Assembly: GCA_019348255.1 (NCBI GenBank)
Contig: JAHWJU010000002.1
Coordinates: 7,132-71,131 of the forward strand
Direction of reading: 5' to 3'
Origin: Actinomycetota bacterium
Lineage (GTDB): Bacteria; Actinomycetota; Acidimicrobiia; Acidimicrobiales; CADCTF01
DNA: 64,000 nucleotides
Below, piece after piece: positions 5,062 to 58,816 of the stretch. The notes under the pieces were generated by a model, which did not search any database, was not told the DNA's origin, and saw only the letters and a list, made by a program, of their open reading frames with translations. Position 1 is the first letter of the stretch, and each line of letters begins with the position of its first letter. The position numbers and the translations under genes are program-made.

Positions 5062-5675
5062 GAGGAGTCCAGCGCGCGCAACAGATGCAGCACGAGGACC
5101 AGCCGGGCGGTTGCCAGGGGGACGGCGGACGGAAGCTCGGGGAAGGGCCGGGTGGCGGCGTCCCCCGTGGCCGAGCTCGACGGCGCCGGCGTAGCCGTGG
5201 CTCGGGATGCCGGCGCTGACGGCCGCAGCTGCATGAACTGGTGGGCGGTGAAGAGGGCGCCGCCCCGCCCCACCACGACGCCTACTCCCACGTGCCGGTA
5301 CCTAGGCTCCACCAGGTTGCGGTAGTGGGTGGGGCTGGCGACGAAAGCGGCATGCAGCTCGCCCACGGTGGTGCCCACCCCGACGTTCTCGCCCAGCTTC
5401 TGCCAGTCGGCCTGCACCACCTTGTCGAGCTTCGGGTTGTGCGAGATGCGATCCACCCTCGCCATCGCCGCCGCCCAGGATCGGGCCACCGCCGTCAGCT
5501 CCGGATGGAGGCCGAGCTGGGGCAGCCCCTTGGCCGCCCGCAGGCCGTTGATCCTGGCCACGAACTCCCGCTCGGCTTCGAGGGGCGAGGGTGGGACCTG
5601 GGCCGCCGCCGGCCCCACCGGCGCGACCAAGGCCCCGAGCACGGTCGCGAGGAGCAGGAAGGCCGAACGGCGCAC
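5058..5675 (-). CDS. Secreted CAP/SCP domain protein (paralogue of 4267..5061)
   Basis: GTG 5675 precedes the signal peptide VRRSAFLLLATVLGALVAPVGPAAA. CAP motifs: LTAVARSWAAAMA...SHNPKL...ENVGVG...HAAFVASPTHYRNLVEP...GVGVV. ATGA overlap with the downstream paralogue. The ORF part upstream of 5675 has no domain support. Confidence 0.75.
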   Translation of the reverse strand: MRRSAFLLLATVLGALVAPVGPAAAQVPPSPLEAEREFVARINGLRAAKGLPQLGLHPELTAVARSWAAAMARVDRISHNPKLDKVVQADWQKLGENVGVGTTVGELHAAFVASPTHYRNLVEPRYRHVGVGVVVGRGGALFTAHQFMQLRPSAPASRATATPAPSSSATGDAATRPFPELPSAVPLATARLVLVLHLLRALDSS

Positions 5676-26632: not shown

Positions 26633-27960
26633 GGAGCCGGACGGCTTCAGCCGAGACGTCCGAGGGCCGCCAGGAGATGGCGCCGCGGGGGGCGACCGAG
26701 CGGGCCGAGTTGCTGCGCGAGGAGGGTGCGGTCCTCCGCCTTCCCGAGGGCCCGACGTTGTCGCCACAGGACGTGGCCATCGAAGTGGCCGGCGAGGGCG
26801 AGACCATGATCATCAACATGGGCCCGCAGCACCCGAGCACCCATGGCGTCTTGCGCGTGATGATGGAGCTCGACGGGGAGACGGTCGTCCGCTCCAAGCC
26901 GGTGATCGGCTACCTCCACACGGGCATGGAGAAGACGGCGGAGGACCTCATGTACATCCAGGGGTCCACCAACGTGACCCGGATGGACTACCTCGCCAAC
27001 TTCTTCAACGAGAACGTCTACTCGATGGCGGTGGAGCAACTGCTCGGCATCGAGGTGCCGCCCCGGGCGACGTGGATCCGGATGCTGCTCTGCGAGCTCA
27101 ACCGCATGTCCTCGCACCTGTTGTTCATGGCCACCAACGGCATGGACGTCGGGGCCCTCTCGATGATGATCTACGGCTGGCGGGAGCGCGAGCTCGTGCT
27201 GGCATTCTTCGAGAAGGTGACGGGGTTGCGGATGAACCACAACTTCATCCGTCCCGGTGGGGTGGCGGCCGACCTGCCGGCAGGTTGGCGGGACGACGTC
27301 AAGCAGATCTGCAACCTCATCGAGCCGAGGCTCGACGAGTACGACGAGCTGCTGACCGGCCAGCCGATCTTCCAGGAGCGGACCCAGGGGGTCGGGGTGC
27401 TGACTCCGGAACAGGCCGTGGCGCTGTCGGCCACGGGGCCCATCCTGCGCTCGACCGGGGTCGAGTGGGACCTGCGGCGGGACATGCCTTACCAGTACTA
27501 CGACCAGCTCGAATTCGACGTGATCGTGGGTCAGTACGGCGACGCCTTCGATCGCTACGCCATCCGCCTCAACGAGATCCGCGAGTCGATCAAGCTCGTC
27601 CGCCAGATCATCGAGCTCGTGCCCGGCGGTGACTACCGGACGCAGGACAAGAAGGTGACGCCGCCGCCCAGGGCCCGCATCGACGAGTCGATGGAAGCAT
27701 TGATCCACCACTTCAAGCTCTTCACGGAGGGGTTCCGGGTGCCCGCGGGAGAGGTGTACGTGCCCATCGAGTCCCCCCGCGGGGAGCTGGGCTGCTACCT
27801 GGTCTCGGACGGTTCGGCCAAGCCCTTCCGCCTCCACATCCGGGCACCGTCCTTCGCCAACCTCCAGACGCTGCCCGTTATGTTGCGCGGCGGCCTCATC
27901 GCCGACGCAGTCGCCATCATCTCCTCCATCGACCCCGTCATGGGAGACGTCGACCGATGA
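26629..27960 (+). CDS. nuoD: NADH-quinone oxidoreductase subunit D
   Basis: NMGPQHPSTHGVLR, IGYLHTGMEK and C-terminal DPVMGDVDR; ATGA overlap with nuoC. Confidence 0.9.
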   Translation: MRSRTASAETSEGRQEMAPRGATERAELLREEGAVLRLPEGPTLSPQDVAIEVAGEGETMIINMGPQHPSTHGVLRVMMELDGETVVRSKPVIGYLHTGMEKTAEDLMYIQGSTNVTRMDYLANFFNENVYSMAVEQLLGIEVPPRATWIRMLLCELNRMSSHLLFMATNGMDVGALSMMIYGWRERELVLAFFEKVTGLRMNHNFIRPGGVAADLPAGWRDDVKQICNLIEPRLDEYDELLTGQPIFQERTQGVGVLTPEQAVALSATGPILRSTGVEWDLRRDMPYQYYDQLEFDVIVGQYGDAFDRYAIRLNEIRESIKLVRQIIELVPGGDYRTQDKKVTPPPRARIDESMEALIHHFKLFTEGFRVPAGEVYVPIESPRGELGCYLVSDGSAKPFRLHIRAPSFANLQTLPVMLRGGLIADAVAIISSIDPVMGDVDR

Positions 27961-28078
27961 GGCCTTCGTCCTCACTCGCTTCGCTCCGTTCGGACGAGTT
28001 CGGTCGTGCCGGCCTTCGGCCGGCGCTGTCTTTCGCTCCGTCGACCGGCGGAGCCGGATCGACGGAGGGGGGCTGCTG
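27961..28078 (+). repeat. Structured intercistronic repeat, copy A (nuoD-nuoE junction)
   Basis: Shares a ~75-nt core with 48259-48382 and 56050-56197. Hairpins at 28008-28024 and 28036-28067. Bridged by a 40-codon ORF (27957-28079) docked ATGA/TGATG to nuoD and nuoE. Confidence 0.75.
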
Positions 28079-28822
28079 ATGGCGGGGCTGAGCAAGGAGA
28101 ACCTGGAGCGCGCTCGCCAGACGATCGCGCTGTATCCGCAGGCCCGCTCCGCGATGTTGCCGCTGTTGCACATCGTGCAGGAGCAGGAGGGCTACCTGAC
28201 GGAGGAGGGGATGGCGCAGGTGGCCGACTTGCTCGACCTGAGCCCGGCTGAGGTCTATGGGACGGCCACCTTCTACGACATGCTCTTCACCCACCCGGTG
28301 GGGACGTACCTGCTCTCCGTCTGCACCAACATCGCCTGCCTTCTGAACGGCGGCTACGAGCTGCTCGAGCACGCCGAGAAGCGCCTGGGGGTGAAGGCCG
28401 GCGGCACCACCGCCGATGGCCGCTTCACCCTGGAGGAGGTGGAGTGCATCGGCCTGTGCGGCAACGCCCCCTGCCTCACCGCCAACTGGCGGTTCTTCGG
28501 TGACCTTACCGCCGACAGCTTCGACACCCTCGTGGACGACCTCGGCGCCGGCCGCCTGAGCGAGACGGTGCCACGCCACGGCACTCTCTGCCGCGTTCGC
28601 CGCTCCGTGGGCCTGACGGCCGCCGGCCCCAAGGGTGAGCAGGCGAAGCCCCCGCCGGAAGAGGCGGCCGCTCCCGCCTCCGAGGCACCCCAGTCCGTCG
28701 CGCCCGGCACCCACGACCAGCCGCCGAGCCGCGAGGGCGCGGAGAAGGCCGCCAAGCAGGCCTCGGAGGTTCCGAAGACGGGCGACACCGCGTCCGACCA
28801 GGGGAGCGGGAGGCGAAAGTAG
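28079..28822 (+). CDS. nuoE: NADH-quinone oxidoreductase subunit E
   Basis: SAMLPLLHIVQEQEGY, GTATFYDMLF, VCTNIAC and ECIGLCGNAPC ([2Fe-2S] ligands); Pro/Ala/Glu-rich C-terminal tail. Confidence 0.9.
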   Translation: MAGLSKENLERARQTIALYPQARSAMLPLLHIVQEQEGYLTEEGMAQVADLLDLSPAEVYGTATFYDMLFTHPVGTYLLSVCTNIACLLNGGYELLEHAEKRLGVKAGGTTADGRFTLEEVECIGLCGNAPCLTANWRFFGDLTADSFDTLVDDLGAGRLSETVPRHGTLCRVRRSVGLTAAGPKGEQAKPPPEEAAAPASEAPQSVAPGTHDQPPSREGAEKAAKQASEVPKTGDTASDQGSGRRK

Positions 28823-47089: not shown

Positions 47090-48258
47090 CCATCACCCAG
47101 CATCAACAGCAGGCCTACATCGCCGGCCAGGCCGCCGAGGCCCGCCTCCGCTTCGAGCTCGAGACAGAGGGAATGACCCTCAACATCGGGCCTCAGCATC
47201 CCGCCACGCACGGGACGCTCCGCATCGTGGTCCGCCTCGACGGCGAGCAGGTCGTGTGGGCCGATCCCGTCTGCGGCTACATGCACCGCGGCTACGAGAA
47301 GCTGTGCGAGGTCCGCAAGTACCAGCAGGTGACCACCCTCATCAACCGGATCGACTGGTTGGGGCACTTCGCCAACGAGGTGCCCTTCATCCTGGCCGTC
47401 GAACAGCTGTACGACGTGGAGGCGCCTCCTCGGGCGCAGTGGATCCGCACGATCTTCTTCGAGATGGCCCGTATGGCCAACCTCGGCTTGTTCCTGGGGG
47501 ACATGGGAGTTCAGCTGGGGGCCATCACTCCGGTGTTCTTCGCCTTCCGCGACCGCGAGCACGTGCTCAACCTCATGGAGGCTGCCACCGGGGGCCGCTT
47601 CCATCCCAACTACGACCGGGTCGGGGGTCTCAAGGAGGATCTGCCCAAGGGTTGGGTGGACGAGTGCAAAGAGGTGATGAAGCGCCAGCGGGAGTTCTGC
47701 GACGAGATGGAGGAGCTCCTGGTCGGAAACGAGATCTTCCAGACCCGCACCCGCGGCATCGGGGTGATCCCCCAACAGATAGGTCTCGACTACGGATTGT
47801 CAGGCGCCAACATCCGCGCCAGCGGCGTCGACTGGGACCTCCGGCGGGACCGGCCCACGCCCTTGGCCTGGAAAGAGGCCGACTGGAAGGTGTGGACCCA
47901 CCCCGACGGCGACTCCTTCGCCCGCTACTGGGTGCGGCTGCAGGAAGTTCGGGAGTCGACCAAGATCGTCGACCAGCTGCTGGAAGGCCTCCCGTCTGGG
48001 CCGGTGATGGCCAAGATGCCGGCCCGCCTCCGGGTGCCCAAGGGAGAGGCCTGGGTCAACACCGAGAACCCGTTGGGGGAGATGGGCTACTACGTCGTCA
48101 GCGACGGTGGCCCCAGCGGGCCCTTCCGCTGCAAGATCCGCTCCGCCAGCTTCAACAACATCTCCATCGTGCCGTGGCTGCTCCGCGGCGTCTACGTTCC
48201 CGACGTCATCACCATTCTCGCCAGCCTCTACTTCATCCTCGGCGACATCGATAGATGA
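47086..48258 (+). CDS. nuoD2: NADH-quinone oxidoreductase subunit D, second copy
   Basis: NIGPQHPATHGTLR, CGYMHRGYEK and C-terminal YFILGDIDR; GTGA overlap with nuoC2. Confidence 0.9.
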   Translation: MTITQHQQQAYIAGQAAEARLRFELETEGMTLNIGPQHPATHGTLRIVVRLDGEQVVWADPVCGYMHRGYEKLCEVRKYQQVTTLINRIDWLGHFANEVPFILAVEQLYDVEAPPRAQWIRTIFFEMARMANLGLFLGDMGVQLGAITPVFFAFRDREHVLNLMEAATGGRFHPNYDRVGGLKEDLPKGWVDECKEVMKRQREFCDEMEELLVGNEIFQTRTRGIGVIPQQIGLDYGLSGANIRASGVDWDLRRDRPTPLAWKEADWKVWTHPDGDSFARYWVRLQEVRESTKIVDQLLEGLPSGPVMAKMPARLRVPKGEAWVNTENPLGEMGYYVVSDGGPSGPFRCKIRSASFNNISIVPWLLRGVYVPDVITILASLYFILGDIDR

Positions 48259-48382
48259 GTTCGCCGTCACTCGCTCGCTGCGCTCGCTCCGTTCCGGCGA
48301 GTTCGTTGTGCCGCCCTTCGGGCGGCGCTGTCTCTGGCTCGATCGACCGGCAGAGCCGGATCGATCGAGGGGAGGGGGGTTG
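48259..48382 (+). repeat. Structured intercistronic repeat, copy B (nuoD2-nuoH2 junction)
   Basis: Same core as 27961-28078. Hairpins at 48310-48326 and 48338-48369. Bridged by a 42-codon ORF (48255-48383) docked ATGA/TGATG. Confidence 0.75.
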
Positions 48383-49402
48383 ATGCTGGCGCTTTCTTAT
48401 CCGGTGGAGACGGCCATCAAGATGGGGGCGGTGCTGGCCGTCATCCCGGTGGGGGCACTGATCCTCGTCTACGTCTTCCTGTTCAAGATGATGAGCCACA
48501 TGCAGAGCCGGCTGGGTCCGATGGAGGCGGGCTTCCACGGGACGCTGCAGCCGGTGGTGGAGGGTGTGAAGTTCCTCCAGAAGGAGGACCTCATCCCGAA
48601 CGGAGCGGACCGGCGGATCTTCGCACTGGCCCCGCTCGTGGTCATCATCGCCACGTTCCTCATCTACGCGGTGATCCCGGCCGGGCCCGACCTCGTCATC
48701 TCCAACCTCGACGTGGGCGTCTTCTATGCCCTGGCCGTTGGCTCGCTGTCCGTACTCGGCGTCCTCATGGCCGGTTGGGCGTCGGCCAACAAGTACTCGC
48801 TGCTCGGCTCGCTACGGGCTGCGGGGCAGCTGATCGCCTACGAGCTCCCGCTGGTGCTGGCCGTCGTGGGGGTTGTGATCCAGGCCGGGACGATGAGCCT
48901 GTCCGGCATCGTCGAGGCCCAGGCCGAAGGAGAGATCTTCGGCTTCGGCGGCATCGGCAACCCTTACATCCTCACTCAGTTCATCGGCTTCGCGCTGTTC
49001 GTGGTCTCCTCGCAGGCCGAGCTGACCCAGGCGCCCTTCGACATGCCGATCGCCGAGTCCGAGCTCGTCGCCGGCTACATGACCGAGTACAGCGGGTTCC
49101 GGTTCCTGTTCTTCTTCATCGGTGAGTTCGCCACTGCCTTCGCCCTTTCGGCCATCGCGGCCACCCTCTTCCTCGGCGGCTGGTACTTCCCCGGCCTCGG
49201 GACCGACGGCGCCCTCGCCAACCTGGCGGGACCCATCGTGCTCATGGGCAAGATCATGCTGATGGCCTTTTTCATCTTCTGGATGCGCTTCACCTACCCG
49301 CGGCTGCGGGAGGACCAGTTGCAGACCTTCGCCTGGAAGTGGCTGATCCCCATCTCGCTGGTCAACATCGCCGTCACGGGCGTGCTGAAGGTGGCCTTCT
49401 GA
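48383..49402 (+). CDS. nuoH2: NADH-quinone oxidoreductase subunit H, second copy
   Basis: [26 protein letters not shown] and [29 protein letters not shown] 48383 (TTG 48380 is also possible). Confidence 0.85.
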
Positions 49403-54528: not shown

Positions 54529-56049
54529 GTGTACGGAGCGATGCTCGCTGCGGCGCAGGCCGCGACGGATTTCGTGACGCCGAAGCTCGACTACGCCGCC
54601 CTGGCCCCCGAGATGATCCTCACCGGTGTCATCGTCGTCGTCCTGCTGCTCGACCTGTTCCTGGACGAGACGCAGAAGTACGTCATCCCGAGCATTGCCG
54701 GCTTCGGGATCCTGACAGCCGCGTTCCCACTCGTGTTCCTGGCCGTGCAGGGCGACGACGTGCGTTCCATGGTGGGCGGCGCCTACGTCTCCGACGACTT
54801 CGCCCTGGTGTTCAAGGCCCTCTTCCTCGGGACCGGCTACGTCGTGCTCCTCATGTCGAACCGGTACATCGACGAGGGTGACTATTACAAGGGCGAGTAC
54901 TACGTGATGCTGCTGTCGTCGCTGCTCGGGATGGTGGTCATGTCCTCCTCGCGCGACCTCATCTCGATCTTCGTGGCACTGGAGCTGCTGTCGATCCCGG
55001 CCTACCTGCTGGCCGGCTGGCGCAAGCGTGACCTCAAGAGCAACGAGGCCTCGCTCAAGTACTACCTGCTCGGCGTGCTGTCCAGCGGGGTGATGCTCTA
55101 CGGCATGTCGCTGATCTTCGGTGCCGCCGGTACCACCGTGCTGGAGGACATCAGCGCCCAGCTCGTATCGGTGCCCCAGCTCGACAAGGTGATTGCGATC
55201 GGCATCTTCTTCGTGGTCGTCGGCTTCGCCTTCAAGGTCTCCGCTGTTCCCTTCCACTTCTGGGCTCCCGACACCTACGAGGGGGCCCCCACCCCGGTGA
55301 CCGCCTTCCTGTCGGTGGCCTCCAAGGCCGCCGGCTTCGTCGCACTGCTGCAGTTGGTGTTCATCGCCTTCCTCTCCCAGGGCGACACGTGGGCACCGCT
55401 TTTCTGGGTGCTGGCCGCGCTCACGATGACCGTGGGAAACCTCGTCGCACTGCGCCAGACCAACATCGTGCGGATGCTCGCCTACTCGTCGGTCGCGCAG
55501 GCTGGCTACATCCTCGTGCCGTTCGCGGTGGCGGGTGACGAGCTGCGAGCGGTGCAGTCGGCCCAGACTGCGGCGATCGTCTATCTGCTCATCTACTCGG
55601 CCATGAACCTGGGGGCCTTCGCGATCGTCCTGGCCGTCGCCCGCAAGACCCGCTCCGGGGAGATATCGAGCTTCGGCGGGCTCTTCCAGTACGCGCCAGG
55701 CCTGACGGTGGTCATGACCGTCTTCCTGGCATCCCTGGCCGGGGTGCCGCCCGCCGGAGGATGGTTCGCCAAGTTCGCCGTCTTCCGCTCCGTACTCGAT
55801 GCCGGCACCGGCTGGGCCGTCGCCCTGGGCGTCATCGCCGCCGTCAACTCCGTGGTGGCCGCCTTCTACTACTTCAACGTGGCCCGCGAGATGTGGATCA
55901 ACCCCGTCCCCGACGAGGACCGCACCCCCATCCGGGTGCCGGCCGCGCTGACCACCGCCCTCGGCCTCACCGTCGCCGTCGTACTGGTGATCGGAGTCTT
56001 CCCGGGCCTCTTCGCCGACCTGGGCAACGCGGCATCGCTTGGGCGATGA
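54529..56049 (+). CDS. nuoN2: NADH-quinone oxidoreductase subunit N, second copy
   Basis: FVALELLSIPAYLL and FKVSAVPFHFWAPDTYEGAPTPVTAFLS. Confidence 0.9.
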   Translation: MYGAMLAAAQAATDFVTPKLDYAALAPEMILTGVIVVVLLLDLFLDETQKYVIPSIAGFGILTAAFPLVFLAVQGDDVRSMVGGAYVSDDFALVFKALFLGTGYVVLLMSNRYIDEGDYYKGEYYVMLLSSLLGMVVMSSSRDLISIFVALELLSIPAYLLAGWRKRDLKSNEASLKYYLLGVLSSGVMLYGMSLIFGAAGTTVLEDISAQLVSVPQLDKVIAIGIFFVVVGFAFKVSAVPFHFWAPDTYEGAPTPVTAFLSVASKAAGFVALLQLVFIAFLSQGDTWAPLFWVLAALTMTVGNLVALRQTNIVRMLAYSSVAQAGYILVPFAVAGDELRAVQSAQTAAIVYLLIYSAMNLGAFAIVLAVARKTRSGEISSFGGLFQYAPGLTVVMTVFLASLAGVPPAGGWFAKFAVFRSVLDAGTGWAVALGVIAAVNSVVAAFYYFNVAREMWINPVPDEDRTPIRVPAALTTALGLTVAVVLVIGVFPGLFADLGNAASLGR

Positions 56050-56197
56050 TCGCCTTCGCAACCGTAGGTTGCTCGGCGAGCTCGTTGTGCCGGCCTTCGG
56101 CCGGCGCTGTCTCTGGCTCAGCCGACCGGCGGAGCCGGATCGGCTGAGGAGCCTGGCGGACGGAGGGGCCGGATCGGCTGAGGGGTAAAGCATCGCC
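56050..56197 (+). repeat. Structured intercistronic repeat, copy C (nuoN2-midA junction) with duplicated 3' arm
   Basis: Core hairpins at 56089-56105 and 56117-56148. The 3'-arm sequence CCGGATCGGCTGAGG recurs at 56135-56149 and 56169-56183. A 33-codon ORF (56046-56147) starts with an ATGA overlap on the nuoN2 stop. Confidence 0.75.
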
Positions 56198-57349
56198 GTG
56201 GGGGCTATGGGTGCCATGGGGGTGGTGCAGGGGCGGGTTCGGCGGTTGGGGCCGATCTCATTCGAGGACTACCTCGACATCGCCCTCTACGAGCCCGAAG
56301 CAGGCTTCTACAGCACGGGCGGCGGCGCCGGCCGCCACGGCGATTTCCTGACCAGCCCAGAGCTGGGGCCGCTTTTCGGGGCGGTGATCGGTCGGGCGCT
56401 CGATGCCTGGTGGTCGGAGCTCGGAGAGCCCGATCCGTTCGTCGTCGTGGAGGCGGCCGCCGGCGAGGGCAGTCTCGCCGCAGCCGTGCTGGCCGCCGCG
56501 CCTCGCTGCGCCCCGGCTCTGCGCTACCTGCTCGTGGAGCGCTCGGAACGCATGCGCCAGCGCCAACCGGCCCGGGTTGCGCTCGAGCCCAGCTCGGTGG
56601 TGCTGGGCCCGCGGGGGGACGAGGGCGAGGACGACGAGGACTCCTCGACAGCGGCCGGCGACGGACCACGGCTGGCCTCGCTGGACGATCTGCCTGCCGC
56701 TCCCTTCAGCGGCGTCGTGCTGGCCAACGAGTTGCTCGACAACCTTCCCTTCACCCTGCTCGAGCGCAGCACCGGCGGCTGGGACGAGGTGCGGGTCGGG
56801 GAATCGACCGGAAGCGGAGGCCTCGTCGAGTTCCTGGCGCCGGCGCCTACGACGCTGGCTTCTCTGGCGGCAGAACTGGCCCCCGACGCCGATCCCGGCG
56901 TCCGCATCCCCGTGCAGCGACGGGCGGCGGAGTGGCTGCGGAAGGTACTGAGGCTGCTTCGGGGGGGCCGGGTGGTGGTCGTCGACTACGTCGCCACCAC
57001 GGCCGAGCTCGCCAGCCGACCGCAGGGGGAGTGGCTTAGGACGTACCGCAGCGGCGGACCCGGGGGGCATCCCCTGGACACCCCTGGGGCCCAGGACATC
57101 ACCTGCGAGGTCTGTGTCGACCAACTGTCGCGGGTGCGGGTGCCGACCTCCAACCGGCCGCAGGCGGAGTTCCTAGTGGCGCATGGGCTGGCGCAGTTGG
57201 TCGACGAGGCGAAGGATGCGTGGCTGCGGGGGGCTGCTGGCGGCGGGCTCGAGGCGCTGCGGGCCAGGAGCCGGATCGACGAAGCCGCCGCCCTCACCGA
57301 TCCCTCCGGGCTCGGTGCCTTCCGGGTGCTGGAGTGGGTGACCGGCTGA
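56198..57349 (+). CDS. MidA/NDUFAF7-family class I SAM-dependent methyltransferase (DUF185 type)
   Basis: ISFEDYLDIALYEPEAGFYS...GRHGDFLTSPELGPLFGAVIG closely parallels the family N-terminal block (GDF.TSPE....FGE..G). It is followed by VVEAAAGEGSLA (SAM motif I) and VLANELLDNLPF. The start could also be ATG 56207 or 56216. Confidence 0.8.
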   Translation: MGAMGAMGVVQGRVRRLGPISFEDYLDIALYEPEAGFYSTGGGAGRHGDFLTSPELGPLFGAVIGRALDAWWSELGEPDPFVVVEAAAGEGSLAAAVLAAAPRCAPALRYLLVERSERMRQRQPARVALEPSSVVLGPRGDEGEDDEDSSTAAGDGPRLASLDDLPAAPFSGVVLANELLDNLPFTLLERSTGGWDEVRVGESTGSGGLVEFLAPAPTTLASLAAELAPDADPGVRIPVQRRAAEWLRKVLRLLRGGRVVVVDYVATTAELASRPQGEWLRTYRSGGPGGHPLDTPGAQDITCEVCVDQLSRVRVPTSNRPQAEFLVAHGLAQLVDEAKDAWLRGAAGGGLEALRARSRIDEAAALTDPSGLGAFRVLEWVTG

Positions 57350-57376: not shown

Positions 57377-58816
57377 GTGCGTCGACGCCTCCCCCTGCTG
57401 CTGGCCCTCGTATTGACGCTGCCTTCGGCGCTCATTGCCACCGTCGCCACCCCCGCGGGCGCGGCCGGCGACGAAACCGTCATGGCCTTCGGTGACGCCG
57501 CATTTGCCGGCTCCACCACCGGTCTGGCGCTTTCCTCGCCGCTGGTGGCGATGGCCGCCAAGCCCACCGGCACCGGGTACTGGCTGGTGGGGCGCGACGG
57601 GGGCATCTTCGCCTTCGGCGACGCCCCCTATGTCGGCTCCACCGGGGACATCCGTCTCAACCAGCCGATCGTGGGCATGACGGCAACCCGTTCCGGCAAC
57701 GGTTACTGGATGGCCGCCGCCGACGGCGGCATCTTCGCCTTCGGCGACGCCCGCTTCCTCGGCAGCATGGGCGGTGTCCGCCTCGCTCGGCCGGTCGTGG
57801 CGATGGCGGCCACCGCCTCCGGCAACGGTTACTGGATGGTGGCCGCCGACGGCGGCATGTTCGCCTTCGGCGACGCCGGGTTCCACGGGTCTGCCGCCGG
57901 TCAGCGTCTGGGCAAGCCCGTCGTGGCCATGGCGTCGACTCCCGACGGTGGCGGGTACTGGCTGGTGGGCGGCGACGGCGCCGTCTACTCGTTCGGCAAC
58001 GCACCCCACCTCGGCAACGCACCCGGCAACGTCGAGGTCGCCGGCATCGCCGCATCCCCATCGGGCAACGGCTACTGGCTGCTAGACCGCGCCGGCGGTG
58101 TCTTCACCTTCGGTGACGCCGTCTTCGCCGGTTCCGGCTCAGGAGCGGTCGCACCCGGCAAGGTCGCCCTCGCCCTGGTGCCGTCGCGCTCGGGCAACGG
58201 GTACTGGATCACGACCGGTGAGATCCCCTTGGTGGCGGGGGCCACCGGCTCGGCGGTGACCCGCCTGCAGAGCCGGCTCCACGAGCTCGGCTACTGGGTG
58301 CCGGTCGACGGCCGGTTCACGGCCACCACCACCCAGGCCCTCTATGCCCTCCAGAAGGCGGCCGGCATCTCCCGCACCGGCCAGTTCGACGCCGCCACGG
58401 CGCGAGCCCTGGACGAGCGGGTGCTGCCCACACCCCGCACCACCAGCGGCTACGTGGCCGAGATCGACAAGAGCCGCCAGCTGCTGATGCTCGTGAGCAA
58501 CGGACGCATCGTCCGCGTCTTCAACACCTCCACCGGCAACGGCGCCCGCTACCGCTCAGGCTCCGGAACCGCCATCGCCTACACCCCTGAGGGATCGTTC
58601 TCGGTGGTGCGCCAGATCAACGGGCTACGGATCTCGGAGCTGGGGCAGCTCTTCCGGCCCAAGTACTTCACCGGCGGCTACGCCATCCACGGCTCACCCA
58701 GCATCCCGCCCTATCCGGCCTCCCACGGCTGTGTTCGCGTCTCGAACTCCGCCATCAACTTCCTCTGGGACAGCGGCGAGCTGCCCATCGGGACGCCGGT
58801 GCTCGTCTACTCCTGA
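57377..58816 (+). CDS. Secreted L,D-transpeptidase (YkuD) with PG-binding domain and N-terminal six-repeat propeller-like domain
   Basis: Signal peptide; six ~40-aa repeats; PG_binding_1-like GSAVTRLQSRLHELGYWVPVDGRFTATTTQALYALQKAAGISRTGQ; YkuD catalytic motif YAIHGSPSIPPYPASHGCVRV. Confidence 0.85.
   Translation: MRRRLPLLLALVLTLPSALIATVATPAGAAGDETVMAFGDAAFAGSTTGLALSSPLVAMAAKPTGTGYWLVGRDGGIFAFGDAPYVGSTGDIRLNQPIVGMTATRSGNGYWMAAADGGIFAFGDARFLGSMGGVRLARPVVAMAATASGNGYWMVAADGGMFAFGDAGFHGSAAGQRLGKPVVAMASTPDGGGYWLVGGDGAVYSFGNAPHLGNAPGNVEVAGIAASPSGNGYWLLDRAGGVFTFGDAVFAGSGSGAVAPGKVALALVPSRSGNGYWITTGEIPLVAGATGSAVTRLQSRLHELGYWVPVDGRFTATTTQALYALQKAAGISRTGQFDAATARALDERVLPTPRTTSGYVAEIDKSRQLLMLVSNGRIVRVFNTSTGNGARYRSGSGTAIAYTPEGSFSVVRQINGLRISELGQLFRPKYFTGGYAIHGSPSIPPYPASHGCVRVSNSAINFLWDSGELPIGTPVLVYS
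57479..58216 (+). repeat. Six tandem ~40-42-aa coding repeats (consensus ..F.FGDA.F.GS.....L..P.V.MA.T.SGNGYW.V..DGG)
   Basis: Visible in the translation. Repeats 2 and 3 also share near-identical DNA strings 126 bp apart (GGCATCTTCGCCTTCGGCGACGCCC at about 57602 and 57728; TCCGGCAACGGTTACTGGATGG at about 57693 and 57819). Confidence 0.8.

What the first reader, a model, noticed from the sequence alone, without database searches (positions are those of the whole stretch)
48255..48385. The element occupies the same junction (immediately after nuoD) in two deeply diverged nuo operons
Operon 1 has the order nuoD-[element]-nuoE and operon 2 has nuoD2-[element]-nuoH2. The two operons are old paralogues: subunit sizes and sequences differ markedly, and operon 2 lacks nuoEFG. 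The shared position at the end of the A-B-C-D segment is therefore unlikely to be inherited from a recent duplication. Independent acquisition or retention at the boundary between the quinone-module genes and the rest suggests a function tied to that boundary. Examples would be differential mRNA decay, or a translational pause for assembly of the NuoBCD module.
Basis: inference. Interest (0 to 1): 0.65.

Follow-up and report, generated by a model that had tools for sequence, protein, structure and literature searches.

The report
Dispersed structured repeat in nuo operons
The sequence after nuoD in both complex I operons is one copy of a small, hairpin-rich repeat that recently landed at several gene junctions in one Acidimicrobiales lineage, so its shared position is better explained by a shared landing site than by a role specific to nuoD.

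Summary
A ~115-125 nt element lies between nuoD and nuoE (27961-28075) and between nuoD2 and nuoH2 (48259-48379). The two NuoD proteins are only 41% identical, and operon 2 lacks nuoEFG.

A covariance model finds exactly three copies in the window.

The element is a chain of hairpins with strong compensatory variation: 96.6% of cells paired, and 10 of 23 pairs changed on both sides. It matches no Rfam family.

It is a lineage-restricted dispersed repeat:
- Relatives with 83-90% identical NuoD or NuoD2 have empty junctions with a plain stop/start overlap (cgATGA, agATGA or TGATG).
- Relatives at 93-97% are filled, but with different or duplicated modules.
- In other Acidimicrobiales contigs the element follows unrelated genes: a sigma factor, MBOAT, an acyltransferase and a yraN-like gene. 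It always starts 1-5 nt after a co-oriented stop codon.

In the window, only three gene ends read GATGA, and all three carry the element. Both NuoD paralogues end in ...D-R-stop overlapping the next ATG, so they offer the same site.

The two intra-operon copies carry a read-through mini-ORF (ATGA ... TGATG) and a G-rich ribosome-binding site. This resembles mycobacterial MIRUs. A function tied to the nuoD boundary is not supported.

The parts
27961..28075 (+). Copy W1, between the nuoD stop (27958-27960) and the nuoE ATG (28079). H1 is 27965-27998, H2 28006-28026, linker TGTCT 28027-28035, H3 28036-28067, and the G-run/SD GGAGGGGGG 28064-28072.
   Evidence: (96.9 bits)
27957..28079 (+). Bridging mini-ORF of W1, 41 codons including the stop. 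Its ATG overlaps the nuoD stop (cgATGA) and its TGA overlaps the nuoE ATG (cTGATGg).
   Evidence: shuffle probability of such bridging is 0.06
48259..48379 (+). Copy W2 (the finding), between the nuoD2 stop (48256-48258) and the nuoH2 ATG (48383). H1 is 48260-48301, H2 48308-48328 (G/C swap kept paired), linker 48329-48337, H3 48338-48369, and the G-run/SD 48369-48379.
   Evidence: (92.4 bits)
48255..48383 (+). Bridging mini-ORF of W2, 43 codons including the stop. It runs from agATGA to tTGATGc. Relative to the conserved core it uses a different frame from W1, so the peptide is not conserved.
56050..56148 (+). Copy W3, after the nuoN2 stop (56047-56049). H1 (AACC-GTA-GGTT apex type) is 56050-56080, H2 56087-56107, linker 56108-56116, H3 56117-56148. 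It is followed by a partial repeat of the H3 3' arm (56135-56149 repeated at 56169-56183). The Methyltransf_28 gene starts at about 56198.
   Evidence: (90.9 bits)
56046..56147 (+). Mini-ORF of W3, 34 codons. Its ATG overlaps the nuoN2 stop (cgATGA). It ends inside the H3 3' arm, 51 nt before the next gene, so it does not bridge.
27956..27960 (+). GATGA stop/start-overlap motif at the nuoD end. The same motif is at 48254-48258 (nuoD2) and 56045-56049 (nuoN2). These are the only gene ends in the window with this context.
   Evidence: empty orthologous sites read cgATGA or agATGA

Best explanation
The element belongs to a previously uncatalogued family of small structured repeats, about 115-150 nt long. 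The family has spread, by a mechanism that is not known, through one lineage of Acidimicrobiales.

Shown:
- A copy is a chain of GC-rich hairpins. H1 has a variable body. H2 is GUGCCGSCC-UUC-GGSCGGCGC. A GCUGUCU linker follows. H3 has a variable outer stem and a constant apex, CGACCGGC-GGA-GCCGG-A-UCG.
- Full-length relatives add a G6/C6 hairpin (H4) and a C-run.
- Every copy starts 1-5 nt after the stop codon of a co-oriented gene.
- In this genome it entered three junctions where the upstream stop overlaps an ATG in the context GATGA.
- Both NuoD paralogues end in the conserved ...Asp-Arg-stop overlapping the next start. They therefore present the same site, and that is why both nuoD junctions are occupied.

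Inferred:
- The element is co-transcribed with the operon.
- The two intra-operon copies are tolerated because they keep translation flowing. A mini-ORF starts at the old overlapping ATG, reads through the hairpins and stops at a TGA overlapping the downstream ATG, with the element's G-run acting as a ribosome-binding site.
- This is the logic proposed for mycobacterial MIRUs.
- Any effect on transcript stability would be a by-product common to all copies, not a nuoD-specific function.
For: Copy number and specificity: there are three copies and no more in 64 kb, at over 90 bits each, with the next hit at 18.6 bits. Motif counts far exceed shuffles.

Structure: on a 13-sequence model alignment, 96.6% of cells are paired, 10 of 23 pairs changed on both sides, and 0 of 500 shuffles reach this. 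Slid controls reach at most 51% paired. Four hairpins are recovered in full-length relatives.

Dispersal: the family sits after a sigma factor (L011), a small membrane protein (L014), an AT3-SGNH acyltransferase before ftsY (L015a), a yraN-like gene (L015b) and an MBOAT gene (L006). All nine independent sites are co-oriented with the upstream gene.

Recency: orthologous junctions are empty in 83-90% relatives. They are filled in 93-97% relatives, but with other or duplicated modules: two tandem copies in L016, a duplicated H1 in L017, and a different H1 type in L019. No copy occurs in 103 kb of the more distant relatives.

Target: only 3 of about 50 gene ends read GATGA and all 3 are filled, while the CATGA overlaps at nuoC/D, nuoM/N and nuoB2/C2 are empty.

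Bridging ORFs: W1, W2 and L014 have them, and so does the unrelated insert in L021.

MIRU precedent: PMC12548453 and PMC3184786.

Contigs of close relatives end in or just after the element, as expected for a multi-copy repeat.
Against: - Genome-wide copy number is unknown. Only 64 kb of the source genome and scattered contigs could be read.
- Exact-pattern scans of public genomes and metagenomes returned only five true relatives, so the family is rare or diverges quickly.
- No transposase or other mobility gene is present in the window. No terminal inverted repeats were seen.
- Flanking duplications are ambiguous. GATG flanks W1 and W2 but also contains the start codon. L014 has a 22-nt repeat.
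- All three window copies lie in nuo operons. By my rough count of about 25 nuo junctions among about 55 in the window, this would happen by chance about 9% of the time.
- Outside this genome the left flank is simply TGA or TAG, not GATGA.
- H2 and H3 stems show no change between the window and the 93% relative, although third codon positions are only 75% identical. This fits constraint or copy homogenisation, so some function is not excluded.
Confidence: 0.75

Rival explanations
1. One reading: the element is a cis-acting RNA selected at the nuoD boundary. It would set different mRNA decay or a translational pause between the NuoA-D genes and the rest of complex I.
For: The element sits after nuoD in both paralogous operons. 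It is strongly structured with covariation. The stems are unchanged against a 93% relative. All three window copies are in nuo operons.
Against: The third copy follows nuoN2. The same family follows unrelated genes elsewhere. Both nuoD junctions are empty in 83-90% relatives whose operons are intact. Module content varies between close relatives. A near-identical strain (L026, 99.76%) carries 2 of its 23 differences in the 118-nt element, both in the conserved linker.
Confidence: 0.1
2. The family is a general host-useful intercistronic module of the REP/BIME kind. It would act wherever it lands, as a barrier to 3'-5' exonucleases or as an RNase processing site, and would be kept for that reason.
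For: It is a run of stable GC-rich hairpins with no U-tract, and the terminator scan found none. It is always on the sense strand just after a stop codon. Hairpins are maintained by compensatory changes. REP/BIME elements can affect mRNA stability (PMC3184786).
Against: There is no expression data. The element is absent from close relatives with no visible compensation. The bridging mini-ORF means ribosomes should melt the hairpins in the intra-operon copies, which works against a stable barrier there.
Confidence: 0.2
3. The element is a non-autonomous single-strand DNA transposon of the IS200/IS605 kind (a palindrome-associated element). The hairpins would be recognised as DNA, and it would insert 3' of a short target such as GATGA or TGA.
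For: It has no terminal inverted repeats. Its hairpins have constant apices. Orientation is strictly single. The left end abuts a fixed short sequence in this genome. No pair changed on one side only, that is no G-U intermediates, which suits Watson-Crick DNA pairing.
Against: No TnpA or TnpB-like gene is in the window or the loci examined. The scan of viral contigs gave only chance matches. The left flank differs in other genomes (TAG, TGA). A U.G (T.G) pair is conserved on the sense strand in H2, in 11 of 13 copies. A test for similarity between flank and internal sequence was not significant (p=0.13).
Confidence: 0.15
4. The mini-ORFs encode functional small proteins.
For: Open frames of 41 and 43 codons have start and stop codons coupled to the flanking genes.
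Against: W1 and W2 use different frames relative to the conserved core, so the peptides are unrelated. W3 stops early. A search with translations of all three frames found no protein at E<=1 among 5.8 billion. Open frames are common at this G+C content: 54-62% of shuffles stay open.
Confidence: 0.02

Closest known systems
Mycobacterial interspersed repetitive units (MIRUs; Supply et al. 1997, as summarised in PMC3184786 and PMC12548453)
   Same: Both are short dispersed repeats in Actinomycetota that sit inside operons. Comparisons of filled and empty sites indicate insertion. An ORF runs through the repeat, and its start and stop overlap the flanking genes' stop and start codons, so translational coupling survives. 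Tetranucleotide direct repeats flank MIRUs, and GATG flanks W1 and W2. MIRUs vary by tandem duplication, as seen here in L016 and L017. Both have GC-rich internal inverted repeats.
   Different: The host class differs: Acidimicrobiia, not Mycobacterium. This element is longer (115-150 nt against 40-100 bp). It has a defined three- or four-hairpin architecture with constant apices and covarying stems. Many copies sit after terminal genes rather than between cistrons. Sequence relatedness to MIRUs could not be tested with the tools available.
REP/BIME and REPIN elements of proteobacteria
   Same: Both are extragenic, co-transcribed, GC-rich hairpin repeats. In REPINs, stems are likewise kept by compensatory change. 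These elements can affect mRNA stability.
   Different: This element has no GTAG-type 5' tetranucleotide and no inverted doublet arrangement. All copies have one orientation. It has several different hairpins with conserved single-stranded linkers. No RAYT gene was seen.
Bacterial MITEs (for example Correia, ERIC, RUP)
   Same: Both are small non-coding repeats found in intergenic regions and co-transcribed with neighbouring genes. Some MITEs contribute open frames or regulatory signals.
   Different: No terminal inverted repeats were found, no clear fixed-length target duplication, and no parent insertion sequence was identified.

Membership tests
MIRU-like intercistronic repeats (functional kind) | Dispersed short repeat located between co-transcribed genes | tested here: met
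   There are three copies in the window, two of them inside operons. L014 and L015a lie between co-oriented genes.
MIRU-like intercistronic repeats (functional kind) | ORF through the repeat whose start and stop overlap the flanking stop and start codons | tested here: met
   W1 is 27957-28079 and W2 is 48255-48383, both running from ATGA to TGATG. L014 has a 69-codon ORF ending at TGATG. W3 does not bridge.
MIRU-like intercistronic repeats (functional kind) | Filled versus empty orthologous sites, with short direct repeats at filled sites | tested here: inconclusive
   Filled and empty sites are clear. The GATG repeat at W1 and W2 includes the start codon, so selection could also explain it. 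L014 has a 22-nt repeat.
MIRU-like intercistronic repeats (functional kind) | Tandem copy-number variation between strains | tested here: met
   L016 has two tandem copies and L017 has a duplicated H1 module, against a single copy in the window and L026.
MIRU sequence family of Mycobacterium | Sequence similarity to the MIRU consensus | not testable with these tools
   No MIRU sequence or mycobacterial genome was available.
REP / REPIN | Single 20-40 nt imperfect palindrome with a conserved 5' tetranucleotide, often in inverted pairs | tested here: not met
   The element has three to four different hairpins over 115-150 nt. All copies are in one orientation and there are no inverted doublets.
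REP / REPIN | Cognate RAYT (Y1 transposase) gene in the genome | not testable with these tools
   None is in the 64-kb window. The rest of the genome was not available.
MITE | Terminal inverted repeats and a fixed-length target-site duplication | tested here: not met
   The 5' end (TTCG...) and the 3' end (G-run or C-run) are not inverted repeats. Duplications are inconsistent: 4 nt in W1 and W2, 22 nt in L014.
Any Rfam family (riboswitch, leader, sRNA, nuo-associated motifs) | Match to a curated covariance model | tested here: not met
   No hit at gathering scores in the window. Nothing relevant appeared at E<=10 around W2, or at E<=0.1 in L011, L014, L016, L017 and L019.
Intrinsic terminator | GC-rich hairpin followed by a U-tract | tested here: not met
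   The scan found 0 terminator-like sites in 47500-49000. The hairpins are followed by a G-run and a start codon.
IS200/IS605-derived palindrome-associated elements | Insertion 3' of a fixed tetra- or pentanucleotide, single orientation, subterminal hairpins, no inverted repeats, no duplication | tested here: inconclusive
   GATGA precedes all three window copies, but TAG or TGA with other contexts precede copies elsewhere. No partner transposase was seen. The flank-to-internal similarity test gave p=0.13.

The most novel reading that the evidence does not exclude
The family may be a new kind of self-contained translation-coupling cassette. On this reading it is a mobile, four-hairpin element that recognises stop codons, and in this genome recognises GATGA stop/start overlaps. 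It would bring its own read-through frame and ribosome-binding site. In this lineage it would have been co-opted to set expression between blocks of complex I genes: after nuoD in both operons and at the end of operon 2.
Probability: 0.12. Interest if true: 0.6.

Novelty: new member of a known kind. Interest (0 to 1): 0.33.

Why it matters
The finding removes a tempting but unsupported inference, that a shared position in two old paralogous operons implies a function at that boundary. It replaces it with a testable one: a shared target sequence created by a conserved protein C-terminus.

It also documents a MIRU-like repeat family in Acidimicrobiia, a poorly studied and mostly uncultured class. 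The family has a well-defined hairpin architecture and read-through frames that preserve translational coupling.

Such elements matter in three practical ways:
- They break metagenome assemblies. Three contigs from close relatives end at the element.
- They can serve as strain markers.
- They are natural experiments on how much structured insert an operon junction tolerates.

Tried and rejected
- Rfam. A search at gathering scores on the whole window, and permissive searches around W2 and on five related loci, gave nothing relevant.
- tRNA/tmRNA scan. None found.
- Promoter and terminator scan around W2. None found.
- Exact-pattern scans. The genome collection gave 10 hits, 1 real. Metagenomes gave 5 hits, 4 real. 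Viral contigs gave 5 hits, all chance matches to the 19-mer apex. The patterns were too strict to find diverged copies such as L015b, which only the covariance model found.
- BLAST of a full-length copy against plasmids. No match.
- Census by protein search with all three reading frames of W1 and W3. No hit at E<=1.
- Idea that the variable H3 stem copies or guides to the flanking target. W1 shares CGTCGACCG with the nuoD end, but across eight copies self-matches were not better than cross-matches (permutation p=0.13). Rejected as unsupported.
- Weak model hit at 5172-5244 (18.6 bits). It has none of the conserved motifs on reading and falls far below the three copies. Not a copy.
- Literature search for a published Acidimicrobiia repeat or for a MIRU consensus sequence. 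Only general reviews were found.
Full report
**1. What is at the coordinates**

The stretch 48255-48385 runs from an ATG that overlaps the stop codon of a Complex1_49kDa gene (nuoD2, stop 48256-48258) to the ATG of an NADHdh gene (nuoH2, 48383). A similar stretch separates the other Complex1_49kDa gene (nuoD, stop 27958-27960) from the 2Fe-2S thioredoxin-like gene (nuoE, ATG 28079).

The two NuoD proteins are 41% identical. Operon 2 has no E, F or G genes. The factual part of the finding is correct.

It is also not a chance resemblance. A 26-nt motif and a 20-nt motif from the element each occur three times in the window, against 0.00 and 0.21 expected from shuffles.

**2. A third copy was missed**

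The repeat search and the motif searches show a third copy directly after the stop of nuoN2 (stop 56047-56049; element 56050-56148). It lies upstream of a Methyltransf_28 gene.

I built a covariance model from nine copies and ran it with all filters off. It scores the three copies at 96.9, 92.4 and 90.9 bits. The next hit scores 18.6 bits and, read directly, has none of the conserved motifs. The window therefore holds exactly three copies, all on the + strand and all in nuo operons.

**3. Anatomy**

Each window copy has the following parts (coordinates):
- H1, a hairpin with a variable body, closed by UUCG...CGAG.
- A GAGUU-like spacer.
- H2, GUGCCGSCC-UUC-GGSCGGCGC.
- A GCUGUCU linker.
- H3, with a variable outer stem, a constant inner stem-loop CGACCGGC-RGA-GCCGG and a bulged A.
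- A G-run.

The differences between copies are concentrated in paired positions and are compensated. On the first alignment, 93% of cells pair and 7 of 23 pairs changed on both sides. On the 13-sequence model alignment, 96.6% pair and 10 of 23 pairs changed on both sides. None of 500 shuffles reaches this, and slid controls stay at or below 51% paired.

A U.G pair at the second position of H2 is kept in 11 of 13 copies on the sense strand. No pair changed on one side only. The data therefore do not decide between RNA and single-stranded DNA as the folded molecule.

Full-length relatives add a fourth hairpin made of a G6 run and a C6 run, followed by a second C-run. In W1 and W2 the element ends in the G-run, which lies 3-7 nt before the downstream start codon and looks like its ribosome-binding site.

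No Rfam family matches. There is no tRNA-like gene and no terminator-like or promoter-like site.

**4. The family elsewhere**

All NuoD and NuoD2 relatives are from Acidimicrobiales or unclassified Actinomycetota MAGs.

Exact-pattern scans found one true relative in the genome collection (L006, an Acidimicrobiales MAG) and four in metagenomes (L011, L013, L014, L015). The model then found a diverged second copy in L015, which the patterns had missed.

These copies follow:
- a sigma-70 family gene (L011);
- a small membrane protein (L014);
- an AT3-SGNH acyltransferase upstream of ftsY (L015a);
- a yraN-like gene (L015b);
- an MBOAT gene upstream of a DUF459 gene (L006).

In all nine independent sites the element has the orientation of the upstream gene. 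Where H1 begins with the UUCG motif, that motif starts 1-5 nt after the stop codon. L006 has a different H1. The family is therefore dispersed and not specific to nuoD.

**5. Filled and empty sites**

For nuoD-nuoE:
- A strain 99.76% identical to the window has the element (L026, GCA_019348055.1).
- Two 93% relatives have it in altered form. L016 has two tandem copies with two different H1 types. L017 has a duplicated H1. Both contigs end in or shortly after it.
- Relatives at 85%, 84% and 83% have no element. The genes overlap as cgATGA, lie 2 nt apart, or share a single base (gene calls place the stop end and the start at the same position) (L018, L036, L037-39).

For nuoD2-nuoH2:
- A 97% relative has the element but with the other H1 type, and its contig ends inside it (L019).
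- Relatives at 90%, 88% and 89% are empty, reading cgATGA, agATGA and TGATG (L020, L027, L028-30).
- Another 89% relative carries a quite different 97-nt insert at the same ATGA (L021-25).

The nuoN2-methyltransferase junction is empty in L021 and in L028/29.

The model finds no copy in 103 kb of these more distant relatives. The insertions are therefore recent, independent and restricted to a narrow lineage. The ancestral state at both nuoD junctions was a stop/start overlap.

**6. Why both nuoD junctions**

I listed the stop-codon contexts of about 50 likely genes in the window, chosen by codon-position G+C. Only three read GATGA, and those are exactly the three occupied sites. The overlaps that read CATGA (nuoC/D, nuoM/N, nuoB2/C2) are empty.

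Empty orthologous sites already read cgATGA or agATGA. The element therefore did not bring the motif.

Both NuoD paralogues end in G-D-(V/I)-D-R, followed by a stop that overlaps the next ATG. The same short sequence is thus offered at both junctions. This explains the coincidence by target or permissiveness.

The rule is not universal. In other genomes the left flank is TGA or TAG in other contexts. The number of sites is also small.

**7. Read-through frames**

In W1 an ORF starts at the ATG overlapping the nuoD stop (27957). It runs 40 sense codons and ends at a TGA whose last base is the A of the nuoE ATG (28079). W2 does the same (48255-48383, 42 sense codons).

The two use different frames relative to the conserved core, so no peptide is conserved.

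In shuffles of the insert that keep its length, such bridging occurs in about 6% of cases for each copy.

L014 also bridges. Its ORF runs through the whole element and ends in a 22-nt duplicate of the upstream gene's end, at a TGATG that starts the next gene. The unrelated insert in L021 bridges too, from ATGA to GTGA. W3 does not bridge.

This is the arrangement described for mycobacterial MIRUs. They are short mobile repeats inside operons whose ORFs overlap the neighbouring stop and start codons. They have flanking tetranucleotide repeats and are thought to insert with minimal effect on expression (PMC3184786, PMC12548453). That ribosomes actually relay through the element here is inference.

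**8. Constraint**

Between the window and L016, nuoD is 87.9% identical in DNA and 75% identical at third codon positions. The element as a whole is 80-83% identical. The 46 paired bases of H2 and H3 in W1 and L016b do not differ at all (alignment).

This could reflect selection on the hairpins or homogenisation among copies.

Conversely, the 99.76% strain L026 has 2 of its 23 differences in the 118-nt element, both in the conserved linker. I read this as moderate structural constraint typical of repeat families. It is not evidence for a nuoD-specific role.

**9. Verdict**

The idea of independent acquisition is right. The proposed function tied to the boundary between the quinone module and the rest is not supported.

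The element is best described as a new, lineage-restricted member of the known kind of small structured intercistronic repeats, working like a MIRU. Membership in the MIRU sequence family could not be tested. The defining features of REP/REPIN and MITE families were tested and not met.

How the element moves, how many copies the genome holds, and whether it affects transcripts all remain open. The decisive tests are listed under next steps.

Noticed in passing
L021 11177-11273 (same in L022-L025): A different 97-nt insert sits at the same nuoD2-nuoH2 ATGA junction in an 89% relative. It has a hairpin (TTCTCGAGGAAATAGCTGCCGGATTCCGACAGGTATCTCCTCGAGAA) followed by (AGGCGCAGA)x3. It also carries a read-through ORF, from ATGA to GTGA. 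This junction seems to accept inserts repeatedly.
   Followed up: partly
window 56198-57349; L021 18971-19924; L023 9583-10536: A Methyltransf_28 gene directly follows nuoN2 of the 11-gene operon, here and in relatives. From my own knowledge, this is the family of MidA/NDUFAF7, the eukaryotic complex I assembly factor that methylates the NuoD homologue. The conserved linkage may merit its own look.
   Followed up: partly
L014 (WUUC01006001.1), oriented coordinates about 893-915 and 1099-1121: A 22-nt direct repeat, TCTGGAAGCCCGGCCTTTGATG, flanks the element. It comprises the last codons, the stop of the upstream gene and the overlapping ATG. It looks like a long target duplication. Nothing comparable is seen at the window copies.
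   Followed up: partly
L016 8547-8780 and 8781-8954; L017 5432-5540; L019 3225-3293: Contigs of the three closest relatives end inside or shortly after the element, as expected for a multi-copy repeat that breaks assemblies. In L016 the two tandem copies are followed by about 170 nt of unrelated sequence with no nuoE before the contig end. What that sequence is remains unknown.
   Followed up: no
window 56135-56149 and 56169-56183: The H3 3' arm of copy W3 (CCGGATCGGCTGAGG) is repeated 34 nt downstream. This suggests a partial internal duplication or a remnant of a second copy.
   Followed up: partly
L026 3700-3818 compared with window 27961-28078: A strain 99.76% identical over 9.4 kb has TGTCT changed to TGATT in the element's conserved linker. 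That is 2 of the 23 differences within 118 nt.
   Followed up: yes
window 57461-58003: Four tandem units of 126 nt, 68-71% identical, lie inside the ORF 57377-58816, which has PG_binding_1 and YkuD L,D-transpeptidase domains. This probably encodes a repeated protein segment.
   Followed up: no
window 27949-27960 compared with 28040-28052: The nuoD end (cGTCGACCGatga) shares CGTCGACCG with the H3 5' arm of its own element. The ancestral nuoD2 end (ATCGACCGatga in L020) likewise resembles the H3 arm of W2. A permutation test over eight copies was not significant (p=0.13). However, CGACCG near the stop codon recurs in several flanks, so microhomology-guided insertion is not excluded.
   Followed up: yes
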